Shown here piece after piece: positions 2,202 to 62,757 of a DNA stretch of 64,000 nucleotides. Both the position numbers and the translations under genes were made by a program. The DNA is from Escherichia coli (GTDB taxonomy: Bacteria; Pseudomonadota; Gammaproteobacteria; Enterobacterales; Enterobacteriaceae). The notes beneath the pieces are model-generated. The model worked only from the letters and a program-made list of their open reading frames with translations. It was not told the origin of the DNA and ran no database searches. The stretch's first letter is position 1; each line of letters starts with the position of its first letter. The stretch is taken from assembly GCF_013122565.1 (NCBI RefSeq), contig NZ_CP053258.1; one strand, 5' to 3'.

Positions 2202-4733
2202 ATGCATTGGATGCATTTACCTCTCTATCACTACAGAGCGCATTTTTCCTTCTCTCTGCTGGCATTAACGATTGCCAGCGCGTTACCTGCGTATGGCGGA
2301 AAATTTAACCCAAAATTTCTCGAAAACGTTCAGGGTATCGATCAACACGTCGACTTGTCGGTATACGACTCACCTGTCGGCCAGCAAATACCCGGTAAAT
2401 ACCGGGTTTCGGTGTTTGTAAACGAAGAAAAAATGGCTTCCCAGACGCTGGATTTTAGTACCGCCAGCGAAGCGAAACGCAAAGCCAGCGGTGAGTCGCT
2501 TATGCCTTGCCTTAGCCGGGTGCAACTGGAAGAAATGGGCGTACGCGTTGACAGCTTTCCGGCGCTGAAGATGTCGCCACCGGAAGCCTGCGTGGCATTT
2601 GATGAAATCATTCCTCAGGCTACCAGCCGCTTTGATTTTAATACTCAGACGCTGCATCTTTCCTTCCCTCAGGCGGCAATGATGATGACCGCGCGTGGCA
2701 CGGTTGATCCTTCTCGCTGGGACGAAGGAATACCGGCGCTGTTGCTTGATTACAGCTTTAGTGGCAGCAATGGACGCAATGAAGGTACAGGTTCATCTTC
2801 AGATTCGACCAGTGACAGTTATTACCTGAACCTGCGCAGCGGTTTGAACCTGGGGCCGTGGCGTTTACGGAATAACAGTATCTGGAACCGTACCGATGGC
2901 AAAAACCAATGGGATAACGTTGGTACATCATTAAACCGGGCGATTATCCCACTCAAGTCACAGATAACACTGGGTGATACCGCCACGCCTGGCGAGATTT
3001 TTGACAGCGTACAAATGCGTGGGGCATTACTGGCATCCGATGATGAAATGTTGCCGGATAGTCAGCGTGGCTTTGCTCCGGTGGTGCGGGGCATCGCCAA
3101 AAGCAACGCTGAAGTGAGTATCGAACAGAACGGATATGTTATTTATCGTACCTTTGTTCAGCCGGGCGCATTTGAGATTAACGATCTCTACGCAACCTCC
3201 GGCAGCGGCGACCTGACGGTGATCATTAAAGAAGCTGACGGAAGTGAGCAACGTTTTATCCAGCCGTTTTCGGCGGTGGCGATTTTCCAGCGTGAAGGGT
3301 ATCTGAAATACAGCCTGGCTGCCGGTGAGTATCGTGCGGGTAATTACGACAGCGATAAACCACGTTTCGGGCAGTTTACCGCCATGTACGGTTTACCGTG
3401 GGGGATGACCGCCTACGGTGGCGCATTGTTGTCGGCAGACTACAACGCTTTAGCTCTGGGGCTGGGGAAAAACTTCGGCACCATTGGCGCGGTGTCGGTG
3501 GATGTCACTCAGGCGAAAAGTCAGTTACGCAACAATGAAAAAGAGGAAGGCCAGTCTTATCGTTTCCTCTATTCGAAAAGTTTTGACGGCGGCACTGATC
3601 TGCGTCTGTTGGGCTACAAGTACTCAACCAGCGGCTACTACACTTTCCAGGAAGCGACCGATGTTCGCAGTGACGCCGACAGTGATTACCGTCGTTATCA
3701 CAAGCGTAGCCAGATACAGGGCAACATTACCCAGCAACTGGGAGACTACGGCTCTGTTTATTTCAATATGACGCAGCAGGATTACTGGAACGTTGGCGGT
3801 AAGGAAAATTCCTTAAGCGCCGGTTATCGCGGTCATATTGGTCGGGTGAATTACAGTGTTGCCTATACCTGGACGAGAAGCCCGGAATGGGAAGAGGACG
3901 ATCGCCTGTGGTCATTCAGTGTCTCGATCCCTCTGGGGAGTGCGTGGAGCAGTTATCGCATGACCACCGACCAGAATGGCAAGACGTCGCAACAGGCCTC
4001 TGTCAGCGGTACGTTACTGGAAGATCATAACCTGAACTATAACGTTCAGCAGGGTTACACCAGTAATGGTGTTGGCTACAGTGGTAGCGCCAGCATGGGG
4101 TATATGGGTGGTTCTGGCAACATTGACGTGGGCTATAACTATTCCAAAGATAACCAACAGGTTAACTATGGCGTGCGCGGCGGTGTCATCGTTCACAGTG
4201 AAGGTATAACGCTTTCGCAGCCTTTAGGCGAAAGTCTGGCGATTGTTTCTGCACCGGGCGCGCGTGGCGGACATGTGGTTAATAGCAGCGGCGTAGAAGT
4301 TGACTGGATGGGCAACGCCGTGGTGCCGTATCTCACGCCATATCGTGAAACCATTGTGGAATTGCGCAGCGATACGCTGGGGCAAAACGTTGAACTACAG
4401 GAAGCGTATCAGAAAGTCGTACCCACGCGTGGCGCGGTTGTGCGTTCCCGCTTTGATACTCGCGTCGGTTATCGTGTGCTGATGAGCTTAAAACAGGCGA
4501 ATGGCAACGCAGTACCGTTTGGTGCCACCGCAACTTTAATTGATGAGAGCAAACCTGCCAGCAGCATTGTGGGTGAAGAGGGGCAGCTTTATATCAGCGG
4601 GATGCCAGAAGAGGGCGAATTGCAGGTGAGCTGGGGGAACGAGCAGGCGCAACGTTGCCGTGTGCCATTCCGCTTGCCAGAGAACAAGGACAATGCGGCT
4701 ATCGTGATGGTTAATGCGGTATGCGAGAAATAA
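2202..4733 (+). CDS. lpfC: Outer-membrane fimbrial usher, full length
   Basis: 843 aa single intact ORF with usher-like beta-barrel composition; not split as in the O157 lpfC/lpfC-prime arrangement. Confidence 0.85.
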   Translation: MHWMHLPLYHYRAHFSFSLLALTIASALPAYGGKFNPKFLENVQGIDQHVDLSVYDSPVGQQIPGKYRVSVFVNEEKMASQTLDFSTASEAKRKASGESLMPCLSRVQLEEMGVRVDSFPALKMSPPEACVAFDEIIPQATSRFDFNTQTLHLSFPQAAMMMTARGTVDPSRWDEGIPALLLDYSFSGSNGRNEGTGSSSDSTSDSYYLNLRSGLNLGPWRLRNNSIWNRTDGKNQWDNVGTSLNRAIIPLKSQITLGDTATPGEIFDSVQMRGALLASDDEMLPDSQRGFAPVVRGIAKSNAEVSIEQNGYVIYRTFVQPGAFEINDLYATSGSGDLTVIIKEADGSEQRFIQPFSAVAIFQREGYLKYSLAAGEYRAGNYDSDKPRFGQFTAMYGLPWGMTAYGGALLSADYNALALGLGKNFGTIGAVSVDVTQAKSQLRNNEKEEGQSYRFLYSKSFDGGTDLRLLGYKYSTSGYYTFQEATDVRSDADSDYRRYHKRSQIQGNITQQLGDYGSVYFNMTQQDYWNVGGKENSLSAGYRGHIGRVNYSVAYTWTRSPEWEEDDRLWSFSVSIPLGSAWSSYRMTTDQNGKTSQQASVSGTLLEDHNLNYNVQQGYTSNGVGYSGSASMGYMGGSGNIDVGYNYSKDNQQVNYGVRGGVIVHSEGITLSQPLGESLAIVSAPGARGGHVVNSSGVEVDWMGNAVVPYLTPYRETIVELRSDTLGQNVELQEAYQKVVPTRGAVVRSRFDTRVGYRVLMSLKQANGNAVPFGATATLIDESKPASSIVGEEGQLYISGMPEEGELQVSWGNEQAQRCRVPFRLPENKDNAAIVMVNAVCEK

Positions 4734-5801: not shown

Positions 5802-6326
5802 ATGAAACAAATCGTGATTATGTTGTGCTTACTATCTTGTGCCTTTTCGCCACTGGCGGCAATTACGGATTTAGGGCCGAAAGGAACATTGAAATTCACC
5901 CTTAAAATCAGTCAGGGGGCCTGCGAACTGGTAAAAGACAGTGTTGAAGTTGACATGGGCACCGCAGTTCTCAAGAAGCCGGTAAGAATCGGAACGGAAC
6001 TGAACCCTACCGCTTTTTCAATTGGATTAAAAAACTGTAGTGAAGTGGTCAGAGTCTACGTCACTATGGATGGTACGCCAAATGCGGATGACCCCAATTT
6101 GTTTGCGTTAGATGCGGGTGGCGCTACAGGCGTTGGGCTGAAAATCAAAACCGCCGCGGGCGTACAACAGCTCCCCGAAAATACAACGCCGACACCGATT
6201 GAGTTCGCGATTAATGGTGATGGCGCGCATCAACTAAACTATATCGCCAGCTACGTGCCACTTCGCGCCGATGCAACCATTGGTCGCGCGGATGCAACGG
6301 TCGATTTTACTGTACAGTACGAATAA
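5802..6326 (+). CDS. lpfE: Fimbrial minor subunit
   Basis: ATG at 5802 with GGAG 8 nt upstream, overlapping lpfD stop; signal peptide; pilin-like C-terminus. Confidence 0.75.
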   Translation: MKQIVIMLCLLSCAFSPLAAITDLGPKGTLKFTLKISQGACELVKDSVEVDMGTAVLKKPVRIGTELNPTAFSIGLKNCSEVVRVYVTMDGTPNADDPNLFALDAGGATGVGLKIKTAAGVQQLPENTTPTPIEFAINGDGAHQLNYIASYVPLRADATIGRADATVDFTVQYE

Positions 6327-57359: not shown

Positions 57360-58184
57360 ATGCAATCACTACATGGGAATTGTCTAATTGCGTACGCTAG
57401 ACATAAATATATTCTCACCATGGTTAATGGTGAATATCGCTATTTTAATGGCGGTGACCTGGTTTTTGCGGATGCAAGCCAAATTCGAGTAGATAAGTGT
57501 GTTGAAAATTTTGTATTAGTATCAAGGGATACACTTTCATTATTTCTCCCGATGCTCAAGGAGGAGGCATTAAATCTTCATGCACATAAAAAAGTTCTTT
57601 CATTACTCATTCATCACTGTAGCAGAGATATTCCTTTTTTTCAGGAAGTTGCGCAACTATCGCAGAATAAGAATCTTCGCTATGCAGAAATGTTACGTAA
57701 AAGAGCATTAATCTTTGCGTTGTTATCTGTTTTTCTTGAGGATGAGCACTTTATACCGCTGCTTCTGAACGTTTTACAACCGAACATGCGAACACGAGTT
57801 TGTACGGTTATCAATAATAATATCGCTCATGAGTGGACACTAGCTCGAATCGCCAGCGAGCTATTGATGAGTCCAAGCCTGTTAAAGAAAAAATTGCGCG
57901 AAGAAGAGACATCATATTCACAGTTGCTTACTGAGTGTAGAATGCAACGTGCTTTGCAACTTATTGTTATACATGGATTTTCAATTAAGCGAGTCGCAGT
58001 GTCCTGTGGATATCACAGCGTGTCGTATTTCATTTACGTCTTTCGAAATTATTATGGGATGACGCCCACAGAGTATCAGGAGCGATCGGCGCAGGGATTG
58101 TCGAACTGTGACTCGGCGGCAAGTATGGTTGCGCAAGGAAATTTTTACGGTATTGACTGTTCTGCGGAAGAAATAAGATTATAG
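57360..58184 (+). CDS. gadX: AraC-family acid-resistance regulator GadX
   Basis: 274 aa; C-terminal AraC-type HTH; matches remembered GadX. Confidence 0.92.
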   Translation: MQSLHGNCLIAYARHKYILTMVNGEYRYFNGGDLVFADASQIRVDKCVENFVLVSRDTLSLFLPMLKEEALNLHAHKKVLSLLIHHCSRDIPFFQEVAQLSQNKNLRYAEMLRKRALIFALLSVFLEDEHFIPLLLNVLQPNMRTRVCTVINNNIAHEWTLARIASELLMSPSLLKKKLREEETSYSQLLTECRMQRALQLIVIHGFSIKRVAVSCGYHSVSYFIYVFRNYYGMTPTEYQERSAQGLSNCDSAASMVAQGNFYGIDCSAEEIRL

Positions 58185-58200
58185 AGTTTTACTCAGGCAT

Positions 58201-58306
58201 AAAAAAAACCCGGCATAGGGGACCGGGAAGAGGATAGTCTGCCGTCTCCAGACTAATAAACCGTTATAACACTCCCTGTTGGCACGGGAAACTTTGTGCT
58301 CTCAGT
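58201..58306 (-). ncRNA. gadY: Small RNA GadY (antisense to gadX 3-prime UTR)
   Basis: Reverse complement of 58201-58306 reads actgagagcacaaagtttcccgtgccaacaggg...cccggtcccctatgccgggtttttttt, matching remembered GadY including its terminator. Confidence 0.8.
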
Positions 58307-58552
58307 AAGTTAAATATAACTTTTACTGGAAATAAGATCAGCCATTTTTTTATAAACATAAGCTATACGCTGTGTGAAAATATATTCTTATTGCATTTAC
58401 TAATTTTTAATCAACTGTTATGCAAAACTACTTTTTGGATAAATTTTGGTCCTACCAAATATGGCAGTTTTTGCACTAAGAAACAGTCTGGCATCATTTC
58501 ATTAGTATACTGAAATTGAAATAATCGCAGTAATGAAATATAAGGGATAATC

Positions 58553-59281
58553 ATGACTCATGTCTGCTCGGTGATCCTCGTTCGTCGTTCATTCGATATT
58601 TATCATGAACAGCAAAAAATATCGCTGCATAACGAGAGTATCCTGCTGCTGGAGAAAAATTTGGCAGACGATTTTGCGTTTTGTTCACCGGATACGCGAC
58701 GACTGGATATCGATGAGCTGACAGTTTGCCATTACTTACAAAATATTCGTCAGCTACCACGCAATTTAGGGTTACATAGCAAAGACCGTTTGTTAATTAA
58801 CCAGTCACCCCCCATGCCACTGGTGACGGCGATTTTTGATAGCTTCAATGAATCCGGGGTAAATTCACCGATACTGAGCAATATGCTCTACCTTTCCTGT
58901 TTATCGATGTTTTCTCATAAGAAAGAACTTATCCCCTTACTTTTCAATAGCATCAGCACTGTTTCAGGAAAAGTTGAACGCCTTATTAGCTTTGATATCG
59001 CTAAACGTTGGTATCTGCGCGATATCGCGGAAAGAATGTATACCAGCGAGAGTCTCATCAAAAAAAAGTTGCAGGATGAAAACACCTGTTTCAGTAAAAT
59101 ATTACTCGCCTCCAGGATGTCGATGGCCAGACGATTACTCGAGTTACGTCAAATTCCTCTGCATACTATTGCGGAAAAATGTGGCTATAGCAGTACATCG
59201 TACTTTATAAACACATTTCGACAATATTATGGTGTAACGCCACATCAGTTTGCGCAACATTCGCCAGGTACCTTTTCCTGA
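58553..59281 (+). CDS. gadW: AraC-family acid-resistance regulator GadW
   Basis: 242 aa; AraC-type HTH; matches remembered GadW. Confidence 0.92.
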   Translation: MTHVCSVILVRRSFDIYHEQQKISLHNESILLLEKNLADDFAFCSPDTRRLDIDELTVCHYLQNIRQLPRNLGLHSKDRLLINQSPPMPLVTAIFDSFNESGVNSPILSNMLYLSCLSMFSHKKELIPLLFNSISTVSGKVERLISFDIAKRWYLRDIAERMYTSESLIKKKLQDENTCFSKILLASRMSMARRLLELRQIPLHTIAEKCGYSSTSYFINTFRQYYGVTPHQFAQHSPGTFS

Positions 59282-59643
59282 CATATTTCGCATTTGAATA
59301 TTGGTCAGGATCTCACACCTGCTTCATGTGAAACTCTTCCCTGATGATTTCTGCCGGGCTACCGGCTAGTTCTCTTTCGCAGTTTGCCAGGCGGTATAGG
59401 TATTTTCAGGAGGAAAAGACTCGGCATGTTTGGGATTATTAAGCTGACAATTCATACGATTACGGGAATGTGGGTCAGTATTGTGTTGTTCAAATTGATG
59501 ACGAATGGCTGGAGTGGTTTCTACTTTCAGTGCTGTGTACTAAGCCTGGTATTCCTGACGGTTAGCTGGTTGTTGAGTGGTGAATGGTTAGCAGGAAAGA
59601 GTAAGGCTGAACCCTCACGTTCAACCTTACTCTCATTTACACG

Positions 59644-62600
59644 TTACGCTTTTTTAAAGCGGACAAAGAGATGTTCCACTACAACAAAAAAGACCGGAAC
59701 GAAGTAAATTGCCAGCACTGTTGCGGCAAACATCCCGCCCATCACGCCGGTACCTACCGCGTTTTGCGCGCCAGAACCGGCACCATGACTGATAACCAGC
59801 GGCAGCACGCCGAGAATAAAGGCCAGAGAGGTCATCAGGATTGGGCGTAAACGCATCCGTGCCGCTTCGATGATTGCCTCTATCGGCGTTTTCCCTTCTT
59901 TCTGCATCATCTCAACGGCAAATTCGACAATCAGGATGGCGTTCTTGGCGGAAAGCCCGATGGTGGTCAGCAAACCAACCTGGAAGTAGACGTCATTACT
60001 TAAGCCGCGCAGATCGGTGGCCAGTAATGCGCCAACGACGCCTAACGGAACAACCAACATCACCGAGAACGGAATTGACCAGCTCTCATAGAGTGCGGCG
60101 AGGGCGAGGAACACCACGACCAGTGAAATGGCATACAGTGCAGGAGCCTGGTTTGAGGATAACGCTTCCTGATACGACAGCCCGGTCCATGAGTAGCCGA
60201 CGCCTGCCGGAAGTTTAGCGACCAGGTCTGCCATAAATTTCATAGCGTCGCCGGTACTTTTCCCGGCCGCCGCTTCACCTAAAATCTCCATTGACGGGAT
60301 GCCGTTGTAGCGTTCCAGTCGCGGTGAACCATAGGTCCATTCGGTAGACGAGTAGGCAGAAAGCGGTGCCATCGTGCCAGAGGCGTTGCGTACATACCAT
60401 TGGTTGATGTTATCCGGCAACATACGGAATGGCGTGCCTGCCTGGACATACACTTTTTTCACCCGCCCCTGGTTGAGGAAGTCGTTCACGTAGCTGCTGC
60501 CGAAGGCGGTGGAAATTGTCTGGTTGATATCAGACAGCGCCACGCCCATCGCTTCAGCTTTCGCAGCGTTGACGTTGACTTTGAACATCGGCGTATCTTC
60601 CAGGCCGTTCGGGCGTACCCCGGTGACCTGATTCGGTGATTGCGCTGCCAGTGATAACAGCTCGTTTCGCGCCTGGGTTAGTTTTTCGTGCCCCAGGTTA
60701 CCGTTGTCCAGCAGTTCCATATCAAAACCTGACGCGGTACCCAGTTCAGCCACCGCGGGTAAGTTGAATGGGAAGACGACGGCTTTATTGATACTGCTTA
60801 ACGCAATCATTGCCCGCTGAATGATCGCGGTAACCGAGTTTTCCTCACCGACACGTTCAGACCACGGCTTGAGACTGATAAACGCCAGGCCGTTGTTTTG
60901 CCCCTGGCCGCTGAAGCCAAAGCCGCCAACGGTAAATACCGACTGGACATTATCTTTCTCTTTAGTCAGATAATAATCCGTCACCTGTTGCAGCACTTTC
61001 GTGGTGTTAACCATGGTGGCACCGGAAGGTAACTGCGCGGTGGTCATAAATACCCCCTGATCCTCTTCTGGTAAGAAAGAGGTCGGCGTGCGCAGGAACA
61101 GCACCGCCATCCCGGCGCAAATCAGGAGGTAGACCACCATGTAGCGACCGGTACAACGCAACAGCGAGCGGGTGCTATCGGTATAGTGCTGAGTTGATTT
61201 TTCAAACAGCGTGTTGAAGCGTGCGAACAGGGCGTTAGGTTTATGACCGCCTTCCGGCGCGGCTTTCAGAATGGTGGCGCACAGGGCAGGGGTCAGGCTC
61301 ATTGCCACAAATACTGAAAGCAGCATGGAGGAGATCAGCGTGATGGAGAACTGGCGGTAGATCTCCCCGGTTGCACCGCTCATAAAGGCCATCGGCATAA
61401 ACACTGCGGAAAGAACAACGGCAATCCCGACCAGCGCACGTTGGATCTGCCCCATCGATTTATGCGTCGCTTCCTTCGGCGGTAGCTTATCTTCCGCAAT
61501 GACACGCTCGACGTTCTCCACCACCACGATGGCGTCATCCACCAGTAACCCTATCGCCAGCACCATCCCGAACATAGTCAACGTGTTGATGGTGAAACCG
61601 ACCGCCGACAAGATCGCAAACGTCCCGAGAATAACCACCGGTACGGCAATCGTCGGGATGATTGTGGCACGGAAATTCTGCAAAAACAGATACATGACCA
61701 GGAAGACGAGGATGATAGCCTCAACCAGTGTTTTGAAAACTTCCTGAATAGAAATTTCGATAAACGGCGTGGTGTCGTAAGGATAAACCGTCTTCAGACT
61801 TGCCGGGAAATAGGCTGATAAGCGGTTCAGTTCCTCTTTGACTGCCCGCGAGGTATCCAGGGCGTTTGCTCCGGCAGCCAGTTTGATGGCGATCCCGGCA
61901 GCAGGTTTGCCGTTATAGCGCGCCACGGTGGAATAATCTTCCGCCCCAAGTTCGACGCGGGCGACATCACGCAGCAGCACTTGCGAACCATCTTGCTGAA
62001 CTTTCAACAGGATTTTGCCAAATTCTTCCGGCGTTTGCAGACGCGTCTGCACAATGATCGAGGCGTTTAGTTGCTGGTCTGCTGCCTGTGGCATGCCACC
62101 CAGTTGACCACCAGAAATCTGGTTGTTCTGCACCTTAATCTGGGAAATAACATCGGAAGGTACCAGGTTATATTTATTGAGTTTTTGCGGATCCAGCCAG
62201 ATCCGCATGGCGTACTCGGAACCAAAGAGCTGTACGCTACCAACGCCCGCGGTACGGCTTAGTGGGTCTTTGATATTAGACGCTACATAGTCCGCGATAT
62301 CGTACTGGTTGAGGCTGCCGTTATCAGAAATAAACGCCGCTACCATTAGGATATTACTGCTCGATTTATCGACGCTAATCCCCTGCTGCTGCACTGCTTC
62401 AGGTAATGAAGGCATAGCGAGTTGCAGTTTATTTTGCACCTGAACCTGTGCGATATCAGGAGATGTCCCAGTCTCGAAGGTCAGAGTGATAGAGGCATTA
62501 CCCGCCGCATCACTGGTTGAAGACATGTACATCAGGCCATCAAGCCCATTCATATTTTGCTCAATCACCTGAGTGACCGAGTCTTCTACCGTTTGCGCAT

Positions 62601-62757
62601 CGGCACCCGGATAGGTAGCGCTGACGGTAATGGTCGGTGGCGCAATCTGCGGATACTGCGCAACCGGTAAGTTCATGATCGCCAGACCACCTGCAAGCAT
62701 CATAATAATGGCAAGTACCCAGGCAAAAACCGGGCGATCAATAAAATAGTTAGCCAT
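59644..62757 (-). CDS. mdtF: RND multidrug efflux pump inner-membrane transporter
   Basis: 1037 aa; AcrB-family RND topology; matches remembered MdtF. Confidence 0.93.

What the first reader, a model, noticed from the sequence alone, without database searches (positions are those of the whole stretch)
59384..59707. Unannotated candidate small membrane protein between gadW and mdtF
An ORF with an in-frame ATG at 59426 is preceded by a strong Shine-Dalgarno sequence (AGGAGG at 59408-59413). It would encode about 93 aa with two hydrophobic helix-like segments (GIIKLTIHTITGMWVSIVLFKL and FYFQCCVLSLVFLTVSWLLSGEWL). Its 3-prime end overlaps the 3-prime end of the convergent mdtF by about 64 nt, which argues against it, but small membrane proteins are routinely missed in annotation.
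Basis: seen in the sequence. Interest (0 to 1): 0.3.

Follow-up and report, generated by a model that had tools for sequence, protein, structure and literature searches.

The report
Known acid-induced small membrane protein gene
The ORF between gadW and mdtF is a real gene for a 93-residue, two-helix membrane protein under purifying selection across Escherichia, but it was already reported twice from ribosome profiling (XECs371 in 2017, sORF15 in 2023), so this is a rediscovery.

Summary

The ORF is absent from RefSeq annotation, including K-12 MG1655. It is not new, though. It is identical to sORF15 of Schumacher et al. 2023, which reported:
- about 18-fold induction of ribosome footprints and of mRNA at pH 4.4;
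- two predicted TM helices;
- a FLAG-tagged product seen by Western blot from a plasmid.

It is also XECs371 of Hücker et al. 2017 (EHEC Sakai RIBOseq).

My independent test shows it is a selected coding sequence:
- It is intact and indel-free in 8 Escherichia sequences, including E. albertii and E. whittamii.
- The SD and ATG are invariant.
- Variable sites by codon position are 20/14/41.
- pN/pS is 0.20, against 0.8-1.9 in control frames.

E. fergusonii carries a syntenic 54-aa version with only the two-TM core and the same pN/pS as gadW. The basic C-terminal tail reads through the probable mdtF terminator hairpin (59598-59633) and into mdtF. No relatives were found outside Escherichia, and there is no family or structure match.

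Function is unknown. Most likely it is a small inner-membrane component of the GAD acid-resistance regulon. Verdict: real, but already known.

The parts
59408..59413 (+). Shine-Dalgarno sequence AGGAGG of sORF15, 12 nt upstream of the ATG
   Evidence: Read directly. Invariant in all 8 Escherichia sequences aligned, while the surrounding intergenic DNA varies.
59426..59707 (+). sORF15 / XECs371 coding sequence: 93 codons plus TAA
   Evidence: ORF list. Identical in coordinates and start to the published sORF15, and 2 residues different from the K-12 product. Intact with no indels in 8 sequences. pN/pS is 0.20 in this frame.
59426..59590 (+). Conserved two-transmembrane-helix core (codons 1-55), with the invariant motif NGWSGFYF-x-CC at the loop and start of TM2
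   Evidence: Hydropathy. AF2 helices at 2-26 and 30-56. pN/pS 0.16 and variable columns by codon position 16/8/33. This is the only part retained in the E. fergusonii 54-aa ortholog: 49% identity, codon-position differences 18/8/34.
59591..59704 (+). Basic C-terminal tail (codons 56-93, net charge +10), predicted cytoplasmic. Present in the E. coli, E. albertii and E. whittamii lineages and absent in E. fergusonii.
   Evidence: Charge count. Low-confidence third helix at 62-87. Protein-level selection is weak or not separable from other constraints (pN/pS 0.38 for codons 56-73). No counterpart in E. fergusonii.
59598..59633 (-). 16-bp hairpin 10 nt downstream of the mdtF stop; the probable mdtEF intrinsic terminator, embedded in sORF15 codons 58-70
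   Evidence: Inverted repeat of 15 nt at 93% complementarity. Minus-strand RNA fold -27.3 kcal/mol, z = -4.3. 98% of cells paired across 8 sequences, with one compensatory U-A to C-G change; the covariation is not significant. The simple scan flagged its inner part, 59601-59618, as terminator-like.
59644..59707 (.). 64-nt convergent overlap of the sORF15 3' end with the mdtF 3' end; the third codon positions of the two genes coincide
   Evidence: Coordinates, phase calculation. Only 6 of 64 columns vary, 5 of them at the shared third position.
58553..59281 (+). gadW, the upstream gene with which sORF15 is reported to be co-transcribed
   Evidence: ORF and RefSeq annotation. No sigma-70-like promoter was predicted between gadW and the ORF. 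The paper places sORF15 in the gadW 3' UTR, with RNA log2FC +4.0 at pH 4.4.
59644..62757 (-). mdtF, the convergent RND efflux permease gene
   Evidence: ORF list and RefSeq annotation.

Best explanation
This is a genuine protein-coding gene, published as sORF15 and XECs371. It is restricted to the genus Escherichia and lies at the 3' end of the gadXW transcription unit in the acid fitness island.

Shown:
- The reading frame is under purifying selection.
- Its SD and ATG are conserved.
- According to the literature, ribosomes cover it and its mRNA rises about 16-fold at pH 4.4.
- According to the literature, a tagged product accumulates when expressed from a plasmid.

Inferred from sequence:
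- The product is an inner-membrane helical hairpin, N-in/C-in, with TM1 at about residues 7-22 and TM2 at about 31-55.
- A short periplasmic loop carries the invariant NGWSGF-F-x-CC motif.
- In E. coli and its closest relatives a +10-charged cytoplasmic tail follows.

Inferred regulation: expression follows gadW by co-transcription, because translation efficiency is unchanged and no promoter of its own is evident. That places it under the RpoS/GadE/GadX/GadW acid and stationary-phase circuit.

Inferred, not shown, mechanism: like other small bacterial membrane proteins, it most likely acts by binding and modulating a larger inner-membrane protein of the same regulon. The candidates are MdtF, which is adjacent, and GadC.

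The functional unit is the two-TM core. The tail is a lineage-specific extension. It arose when the frame read through the mdtF terminator hairpin into the end of mdtF.
For: Identity with the published candidates:
- Table S7 of PMC10746267 gives NC_000913.3:3663464-3663745(-), ATG start, TAA stop, and the same sequence.
- XECs371 in PMC5597208 was predicted inner membrane with 2 TM and classed 'real'.

Expression, from the literature:
- RPF log2FC +4.21 (padj 1e-38), RNA +4.03, TE +0.27 (not significant) at pH 4.4 versus 7.6.

Selection, measured here:
- 93 codons with no indel or stop in the window, K-12, and 6 GTDB species-level genomes with GadW 96-75% identical.
- Upstream non-coding DNA has indels and 48% variable columns, against 34% in the ORF.
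- Variable columns by codon position are 20/14/41, chi-square p = 3e-4.
- pN/pS is 0.20 in this frame. Other frames give 0.8-1.9 with 3-9 stops each, except the mirror antisense frame (0.27, 3 stops).
- Pairwise dN/dS is 0.07-0.28, with Fisher p down to 2e-11 for E. albertii. GadW gives 0.05-0.11 where dS is estimable, the E. albertii pair being saturated.
- The E. fergusonii ortholog is syntenic, with pS saturated at 0.96, pN 0.28, a ratio of 0.29 equal to gadW, and unalignable flanks.

Population and structure:
- Present in 5,406 of 5,426 complete E. coli genomes at 95% identity or more.
- The wild-type tail junction 37-mer was found in 4,950 genomes, and the delta-A frameshift allele in none.
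- Topology and charge analysis; helices in the AF2 model.
Against: - No phenotype or interaction partner is known, so the proposed mode of action is by analogy only.
- Protein detection was from an arabinose-driven plasmid, not the native locus.
- The Ribo-seq was elongating-ribosome profiling without start-site mapping.
- SD-to-ATG spacing is 12 nt, which is longish.
- The E. fergusonii copy has a GTG start and no recognisable SD.
- Selection on the tail cannot be separated from constraints imposed by the hairpin and by mdtF.
- The AF2 model has low confidence, mean pLDDT 63.
- The selection test uses only 9 lineages and a counting method, not a likelihood model.
- PGAP/RefSeq consistently declines to call the ORF.
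Confidence: 0.85

Rival explanations
1. Incidental, non-functional translation of an ORF that happens to lie in the long gadW 3' UTR. Ribosomes load on a fortuitous SD, but the peptide has no role.
For: - The ORF lies in a 3' UTR, has no promoter of its own and shows unchanged translation efficiency.
- The other translated ORFs reported in the same UTR are not conserved outside E. coli: sORF14 at 59328-59369 and XECs372 at 59344-59442. This shows that footprints alone do not prove function here.
- RefSeq does not call it.
Against: - pN/pS is 0.16-0.20, with a strong third-position excess only in this frame.
- There is no indel in 282 nt across 8 sequences, whereas the adjacent UTR has several.
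- The SD and ATG are invariant.
- The core is still recognisable and open in E. fergusonii, where synonymous sites are saturated and the flanks are unalignable.
Confidence: 0.05
2. The sequence is conserved for RNA-level reasons, and the open frame is a by-product. The possible reasons are the mdtEF terminator, a gadW 3'-UTR regulatory element or sRNA, or antisense pairing with the mdtF 3' end.
For: - A strong conserved hairpin lies inside the ORF at 59598-59633.
- The last 64 nt are constrained by mdtF: only 6 of 64 columns vary.
- 3'-UTR-derived sRNAs are common in this island, and GadY lies nearby.
Against: - RNA structure or antisense constraints do not produce three-nucleotide periodicity.
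- The hairpin and overlap cover only codons 58-93. The selection signal is strongest in codons 1-55 (59426-59590), which contain no significant inverted repeat.
- There is no Rfam match in the region.
- In E. fergusonii the terminator is a different hairpin outside the ORF, yet the core ORF persists.
Confidence: 0.05
3. The act of translating sORF15 is what matters, while the peptide sequence is secondary. Ribosomes reading through the hairpin and into the mdtF 3' end could protect the gadXW mRNA 3' end, prevent Rho termination, or tune convergent transcription and antisense effects on mdtF.
For: - In E. coli the frame runs through the mdtF terminator hairpin and 64 nt into mdtF.
- No plus-strand terminator is predicted before position 60000, the limit of the scanned region.
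- The tail shows little demonstrable protein-level selection.
Against: - It does not explain amino-acid-level conservation of the TM core.
- It does not explain the E. fergusonii form, which stops before the terminator and never reaches mdtF.
- It could at most be an added, lineage-specific function of the tail.
Confidence: 0.05

Closest known systems
sORF15 (Schumacher et al. 2023, mSystems 8:e01037-23, PMC10746267), an acid-induced candidate small protein in the gadW 3' UTR of E. coli K-12
   Same: Same locus, strand, start (ATG), stop and length. The window product differs from the K-12 product at 2 of 93 residues (C65R and A80T).
   Different: Nothing substantive; it is the same gene in another strain. 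The paper's listed >80%-identical 'homologs' in Vibrio, Klebsiella, Salmonella and Enterococcus are not supported here as true taxonomic spread. The source names shown in my searches were nearly all Escherichia or Shigella, apart from two broad UniRef taxon labels and one evidently chimeric entry. A gadW-based scan of 100,044 species genomes found the locus only in Escherichia.
XECs371 (Hücker et al. 2017, PLoS One 12:e0184119, PMC5597208), a novel intergenic gene of E. coli O157:H7 Sakai found by RIBOseq
   Same: Same ORF. It was predicted inner membrane with 2 TM helices and classed 'real' by their classifier.
   Different: It was annotated with a longer 5' extension (354 nt, 117 aa). That extension is not supported: the region upstream of the ATG at 59426 varies, and the extended frame's start is not conserved.
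AcrZ-type small-protein accessories of RND pumps (AcrZ-AcrB), and small membrane-protein modulators in general (MgrB-PhoQ, MgtS-MgtA)
   Same: A small hydrophobic inner-membrane protein encoded next to, and induced together with, a stress regulon that includes an RND pump (MdtEF). This analogy is from general knowledge.
   Different: There is no sequence similarity to any Pfam or NCBIfam family or PDB chain. It has two TM helices and 93 aa, whereas AcrZ has one TM and 49 aa. It is co-transcribed with a regulator (gadW), not with the pump. No binding data exist.
HdeD / YhiD, membrane proteins of the acid fitness island
   Same: Same genomic island and regulon; inner-membrane location predicted.
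   Different: No detectable homology. Pfam DUF308 and MgtC families did not match at E values up to 10. The protein is much smaller.

Membership tests
Published gene candidate sORF15 / XECs371 | Same genomic position (between gadW and mdtF, gadW strand), same start and stop, same product | tested here: met
   Table S7 coordinates and sequence versus the window and K-12 alignment. The XECs371 sequence contains the whole product.
Bona fide protein-coding gene | Open frame retained without indels or stops in diverged relatives | tested here: met
   8 of 8 Escherichia sequences keep 93 codons. A B2 strain is intact. The E. fergusonii core ORF is intact.
Bona fide protein-coding gene | Purifying selection specific to the proposed frame (dN/dS well below 1, third-position excess) | tested here: met
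   pN/pS 0.20 versus 0.8-1.9 in controls; 20/14/41 variable columns, p = 3e-4; pairwise Fisher p down to 2e-11; 0.29 versus E. fergusonii.
Bona fide protein-coding gene | Conserved translation initiation signals | tested here: met
   AGGAGG and ATG are invariant in 8 sequences. The exception is E. fergusonii, which has GTG and no SD.
Bona fide protein-coding gene | Ribosome occupancy and a detectable protein | not testable with these tools
   Taken from the literature only: Ribo-seq in K-12 and Sakai, and a plasmid FLAG Western. No native-locus protein detection has been reported.
Integral inner-membrane helical hairpin | Two hydrophobic segments of 16-25 residues, with positive charges on the cytoplasmic side | tested here: met
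   Kyte-Doolittle peaks at 7-21 and 31-51; K6 at the N-terminus and a +10 tail; helices in the AF2 model; published DeepTMHMM probability above 90%. Membrane localisation has not been shown experimentally.
AcrZ-like RND pump accessory protein | Sequence membership of the AcrZ family | tested here: not met
   No Pfam or NCBIfam hit at E values up to 10 and no PDB relative.
AcrZ-like RND pump accessory protein | Physical binding to the RND permease and an effect on substrate profile | not testable with these tools
   Needs co-purification or two-hybrid assays and MIC assays.
Type I toxin (small hydrophobic peptide with an antisense RNA) | Small single-TM toxic peptide, a dedicated antisense sRNA, and toxicity on overexpression | tested here: inconclusive
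   The product has two TM helices and 93 aa, which is atypical. The only antisense transcript is the mdtF mRNA 3' end. The paper induced it with 0.2% arabinose for 1 h and detected protein without reporting toxicity. Considered and set aside.

The most novel reading that the evidence does not exclude
sORF15 is a dedicated small-protein subunit or regulator of a transporter in the acid-resistance regulon, either the MdtEF-TolC pump (an AcrZ-like partner) or the GadC glutamate/GABA antiporter, acting through its conserved NGWSGF-F-x-CC loop and TM2 motif. In addition, the E. coli-lineage tail, which reads through the mdtF terminator and overlaps mdtF, couples gadXW read-through to mdtEF 3'-end formation.
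Probability: 0.15. Interest if true: 0.5.

Novelty: already known. Interest (0 to 1): 0.18.

Why it matters
The acid fitness island is among the best-studied stress loci of E. coli. Yet a selected, acid-induced membrane protein gene inside it is still missing from the K-12 reference and RefSeq annotations, and it has no known function.

The evolutionary evidence gathered here goes beyond the published BLAST hits and supports promoting it from 'candidate sORF' to an annotated gene. It also points functional work at the two-TM core and its invariant GWSGF-F-x-CC motif.

As a discovery it is not new.

Tried and rejected
- Family and structure searches gave nothing: Pfam and NCBIfam and PDB sequences.
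- A profile search of 1.84 billion representatives returned fragments or chimeras of the same ORF, the E. fergusonii ortholog, and one weak multi-stretch hit to a 1,738-aa protein that I did not inspect.
- I did not run a fold search, because the AF2 model is low confidence (pLDDT 63) and a helical hairpin gives meaningless matches.
- My first mdtF benchmark was out of frame (9 stops). I redid it and obtained omega of about 0.014.
- One literature query was rejected for syntax.
- I initially read the frameshifted-tail proteins in the big database (P0024, P0032, P0008 and others) as evidence that the tail is dispensable in natural lineages. A targeted search found the delta-A allele in none of 5,426 complete RefSeq genomes, so those variants are rare and may be assembly errors. 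I dropped that argument.
- Covariation support for the hairpin is not significant: one compensatory pair, with 139 of 500 shuffles as good. Its terminator role rests on stability and position only.
- The terminator-like hairpin at 59353-59366 between gadW and the ORF is not conserved, so I do not treat it as a functional gadW terminator.
- I considered a type I toxin reading and a pseudogene-remnant reading and set both aside, for lack of homologs and an atypical architecture.
Full report
**1. The observation**

The window region is the E. coli acid fitness island:
- gadX, 57360-58184 (+)
- GadY sRNA, 58196-58309 (-), Rfam 147.9 bits
- gadW, 58553-59281 (+)
- the convergent mdtF, 59644-62757 (-)

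Between gadW and mdtF the mechanical ORF runs 59384 (TTG) to 59707.
- AGGAGG at 59408-59413
- ATG at 59426
- TAA at 59705-59707
- 93 aa from the ATG
- two hydrophobic segments
- a 64-nt overlap with the 3' end of mdtF

RefSeq annotates nothing here in K-12 MG1655 or under the match in the 40 listed E. coli records. The stretch is present at 95% identity or more in 5,406 of 5,426 complete genomes.

**2. It is already published**

A full-text search led to Schumacher et al. 2023 (mSystems, PMC10746267). Its Table S7 lists sORF15 = NC_000913.3:3663464-3663745(-), with ATG start, TAA stop and 93 aa. The sequence matches the K-12 counterpart of the window ORF.

The authors found it by inspecting the gadW 3' UTR in Ribo-seq data. 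They report the following:
- RPF log2FC +4.21 (padj 1e-38), RNA log2FC +4.03 and unchanged translation efficiency at pH 4.4 versus 7.6.
- Two TM helices by DeepTMHMM, and a possible third helix by ColabFold.

They suggested an association with GadC or MdtF but gave no functional data.

Six years earlier, Hücker et al. 2017 (PLoS One, PMC5597208) listed the same ORF as XECs371 in EHEC Sakai (4405602-4405955, minus strand), with a longer 5' extension. It had RIBOseq coverage, a predicted inner-membrane location with 2 TM, and was classified 'real'.

Many GenBank submitter annotations and UniProt entries carry the exact 93-aa product as 'hypothetical protein' in E. coli and Shigella. I found no later functional study.

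**3. Independent test: is the frame under selection?**

A gadW-based scan of one genome per GTDB species returned six loci, all Escherichia, with GadW 96-75% identical. They include E. whittamii and E. albertii. Results:
- In all six, and in K-12 and a B2 strain, the ORF has 93 codons with no stop or indel.
- The non-coding DNA just upstream (59282-59425) has several indels and 48% variable columns, against 34% in the ORF.
- The SD and the ATG are invariant. The upstream TTG at 59384 and the longer XECs371 start are not consistently conserved.
- In the part that does not overlap mdtF (59426-59643), variable columns fall 20/14/41 on codon positions 1/2/3 (chi-square p = 3e-4).
- pN/pS is 0.20 in the sORF15 frame, and 0.16 for codons 1-55.
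- The other frames give 0.8-1.9 and carry 3-9 stops each. The exception is the antisense frame whose third positions coincide with those of sORF15 (0.27, 3 stops), which is the expected mirror effect.
- Pairwise dN/dS against the window is 0.07-0.28, with Fisher p from 4e-3 to 2e-11. gadW in the same genomes gives 0.05-0.11 where dS is estimable, and mdtF about 0.014.

**4. Range of the family**

A search of 5.8 billion proteins and a profile search of 1.84 billion representatives found near-identical copies, fragments and chimeras of this ORF. Two other hits stood out. One is a weak multi-stretch hit to a 1,738-aa protein that I did not inspect. The other is P0050, a 54-aa protein of E. fergusonii ATCC 35469.

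P0050 lies in the same slot: 19 nt after the gadW ortholog (62% identical) and convergent with mdtF-mdtE-gadE-hdeD. It aligns with residues 1-41 of sORF15 at 49% identity and keeps GIIKL...GWSGF-F-x-CC.

Between the two species:
- Synonymous sites are saturated (pS 0.96).
- Differences fall 18/8/34 by codon position.
- pN/pS is 0.29, the same as gadW.
- The flanking non-coding DNA is unalignable.

The fergusonii gene ends before a GC-rich terminator hairpin and does not overlap mdtF. So the two-TM core is the conserved unit, and the basic tail with its overlap is specific to the E. coli, E. albertii and E. whittamii lineages.

The gene is a genus-restricted orphan, with no Pfam, NCBIfam or PDB relative. 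The >80%-identical 'homologs' in Vibrio, Klebsiella, Staphylococcus and others listed in the two papers are best explained as mislabelled or contaminated records. That explanation is my inference. The source names shown in my searches were nearly all Escherichia or Shigella, and the locus was found only in Escherichia.

**5. Anatomy of the tail**

Codons 58-70 are encoded by a 15-16-bp inverted repeat at 59598-59633. On the minus strand it folds at -27.3 kcal/mol (z = -4.3), begins 10 nt after the mdtF stop and is followed by a pyrimidine-rich run. It is most likely the mdtEF terminator. This is an inference from position and stability. Pairing is kept in 98% of cells across 8 sequences, but with only one compensatory change, which is not significant.

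The last 21 codons are antisense to the end of mdtF, with the third positions of both genes coinciding. Only 6 of 64 columns vary, 5 of them at that shared position. Protein-level selection on the tail therefore cannot be separated from these two constraints (pN/pS 0.38 for codons 56-73).

Frameshifted-tail variants occur in the large protein collection. However, the commonest type (a delta-A at 59596-59598) is absent from all 5,426 complete RefSeq genomes, while the wild-type junction is found in 4,950. I do not use those variants as evidence.

**6. What it most likely is and does**

Shown:
- It is a selected coding sequence with conserved initiation signals.
- It is translated and acid-induced (from the literature).

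Inferred:
- Topology is N-in/C-in. This follows from K6, a +10 tail and a short loop, with helices at 2-26, 30-56 and 62-87 in a low-confidence AF2 model (pLDDT 63).
- It is co-transcribed with gadXW. No promoter was predicted between gadW and the ORF, and RNA and RPF rise together with unchanged TE.

Proposed by analogy only: it modulates a larger inner-membrane protein of the GAD/AFI regulon, with MdtF or GadC as candidates.

The rivals do not account for the frame-specific, amino-acid-level conservation of codons 1-55, nor for the E. fergusonii form. These rivals are translational noise, RNA-level conservation, and 'translation matters but the peptide does not'.

**7. Comparison, novelty, verdict**

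This is the same entity as sORF15 and XECs371, so it is already known. It works like small membrane-protein modulators such as AcrZ, but it fails sequence membership of that family, and its binding is untested.

The session adds:
- the selection evidence;
- the core-versus-tail distinction;
- the embedded hairpin;
- the finding that the companion candidates sORF14 and XECs372 are not conserved.

Interest as a discovery is low. The practical value is that the gene deserves a place in the reference annotation, along with a functional study.

Noticed in passing
window 59328-59369 (+): sORF14 is the 13-aa, GTG-start second candidate that Schumacher et al. 2023 reported in the gadW 3' UTR. It is not conserved outside E. 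coli: in other Escherichia species indels shift the frame, the stop moves, and the start is GTA in L004. It is probably not a functional peptide.
   Followed up: yes
window 59344-59442 (+): This 32-aa ORF overlaps the sORF15 start in another frame. By its identical 99-nt length and matching position it appears to be XECs372 of Hücker et al. 2017, which had higher ribosome coverage than XECs371 but was classed 'pseudo'. Its ATG is lost in L004-L007 and the frame is not conserved.
   Followed up: yes
window 59598-59633 (-): A 16-bp hairpin (-27.3 kcal/mol, z = -4.3) lies 10 nt after the mdtF stop and is probably the mdtEF terminator. It sits inside sORF15 codons 58-70, so this stretch serves as both RNA structure and coding sequence. 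E. fergusonii uses a different GC-rich hairpin outside the ORF (L008, about 6166-6185).
   Followed up: partly
L008 6001-6165 (E. fergusonii ATCC 35469, CU928158): A 54-aa ortholog consisting of the two-TM core only. It has a GTG start, no recognisable SD, lies 19 nt after the gadW-like stop (possible translational coupling), and does not overlap mdtF.
   Followed up: yes
window 59663: The window has A where the other 7 aligned sequences have G. This single change is non-synonymous in both overlapping genes: sORF15 A80T, and Ala to Val five residues from the MdtF C-terminus. The exact T80 protein occurs on 9 contigs in the public collection.
   Followed up: partly
L010 about 2990-3000 (E. coli O121 strain 201805972, NZ_CP119441), equivalent to window 59466: Homology to the window begins at the equivalent of 59466, immediately after an IS66-family element. 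In this strain sORF15 is truncated at about codon 14, and gadW is absent from this locus. It is one of about 20 of 5,426 genomes lacking an intact stretch.
   Followed up: partly
window 59353-59366 (+): A GC-only 5-bp stem-loop followed by a T-rich run, flagged as terminator-like, lies between gadW and sORF15 and inside sORF14. It is not conserved in other Escherichia, so it is probably not a functional gadW terminator. If it is active in E. coli, it would make sORF15 expression depend on read-through.
   Followed up: partly
window 58196-58309 (-): A full-length match to the GadY sRNA (Rfam RF00122, 147.9 bits) lies between gadX and gadW, as expected for this locus.
   Followed up: no
protein P0028 (Logan assembly): A 72%-identical copy whose differences are almost all of the C-to-T type (T to I or M, S to L, A to V, R to C or W). 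It looks like deaminated or chemically converted DNA rather than natural divergence. I kept it in alignment A1 but gave it no weight.
   Followed up: no
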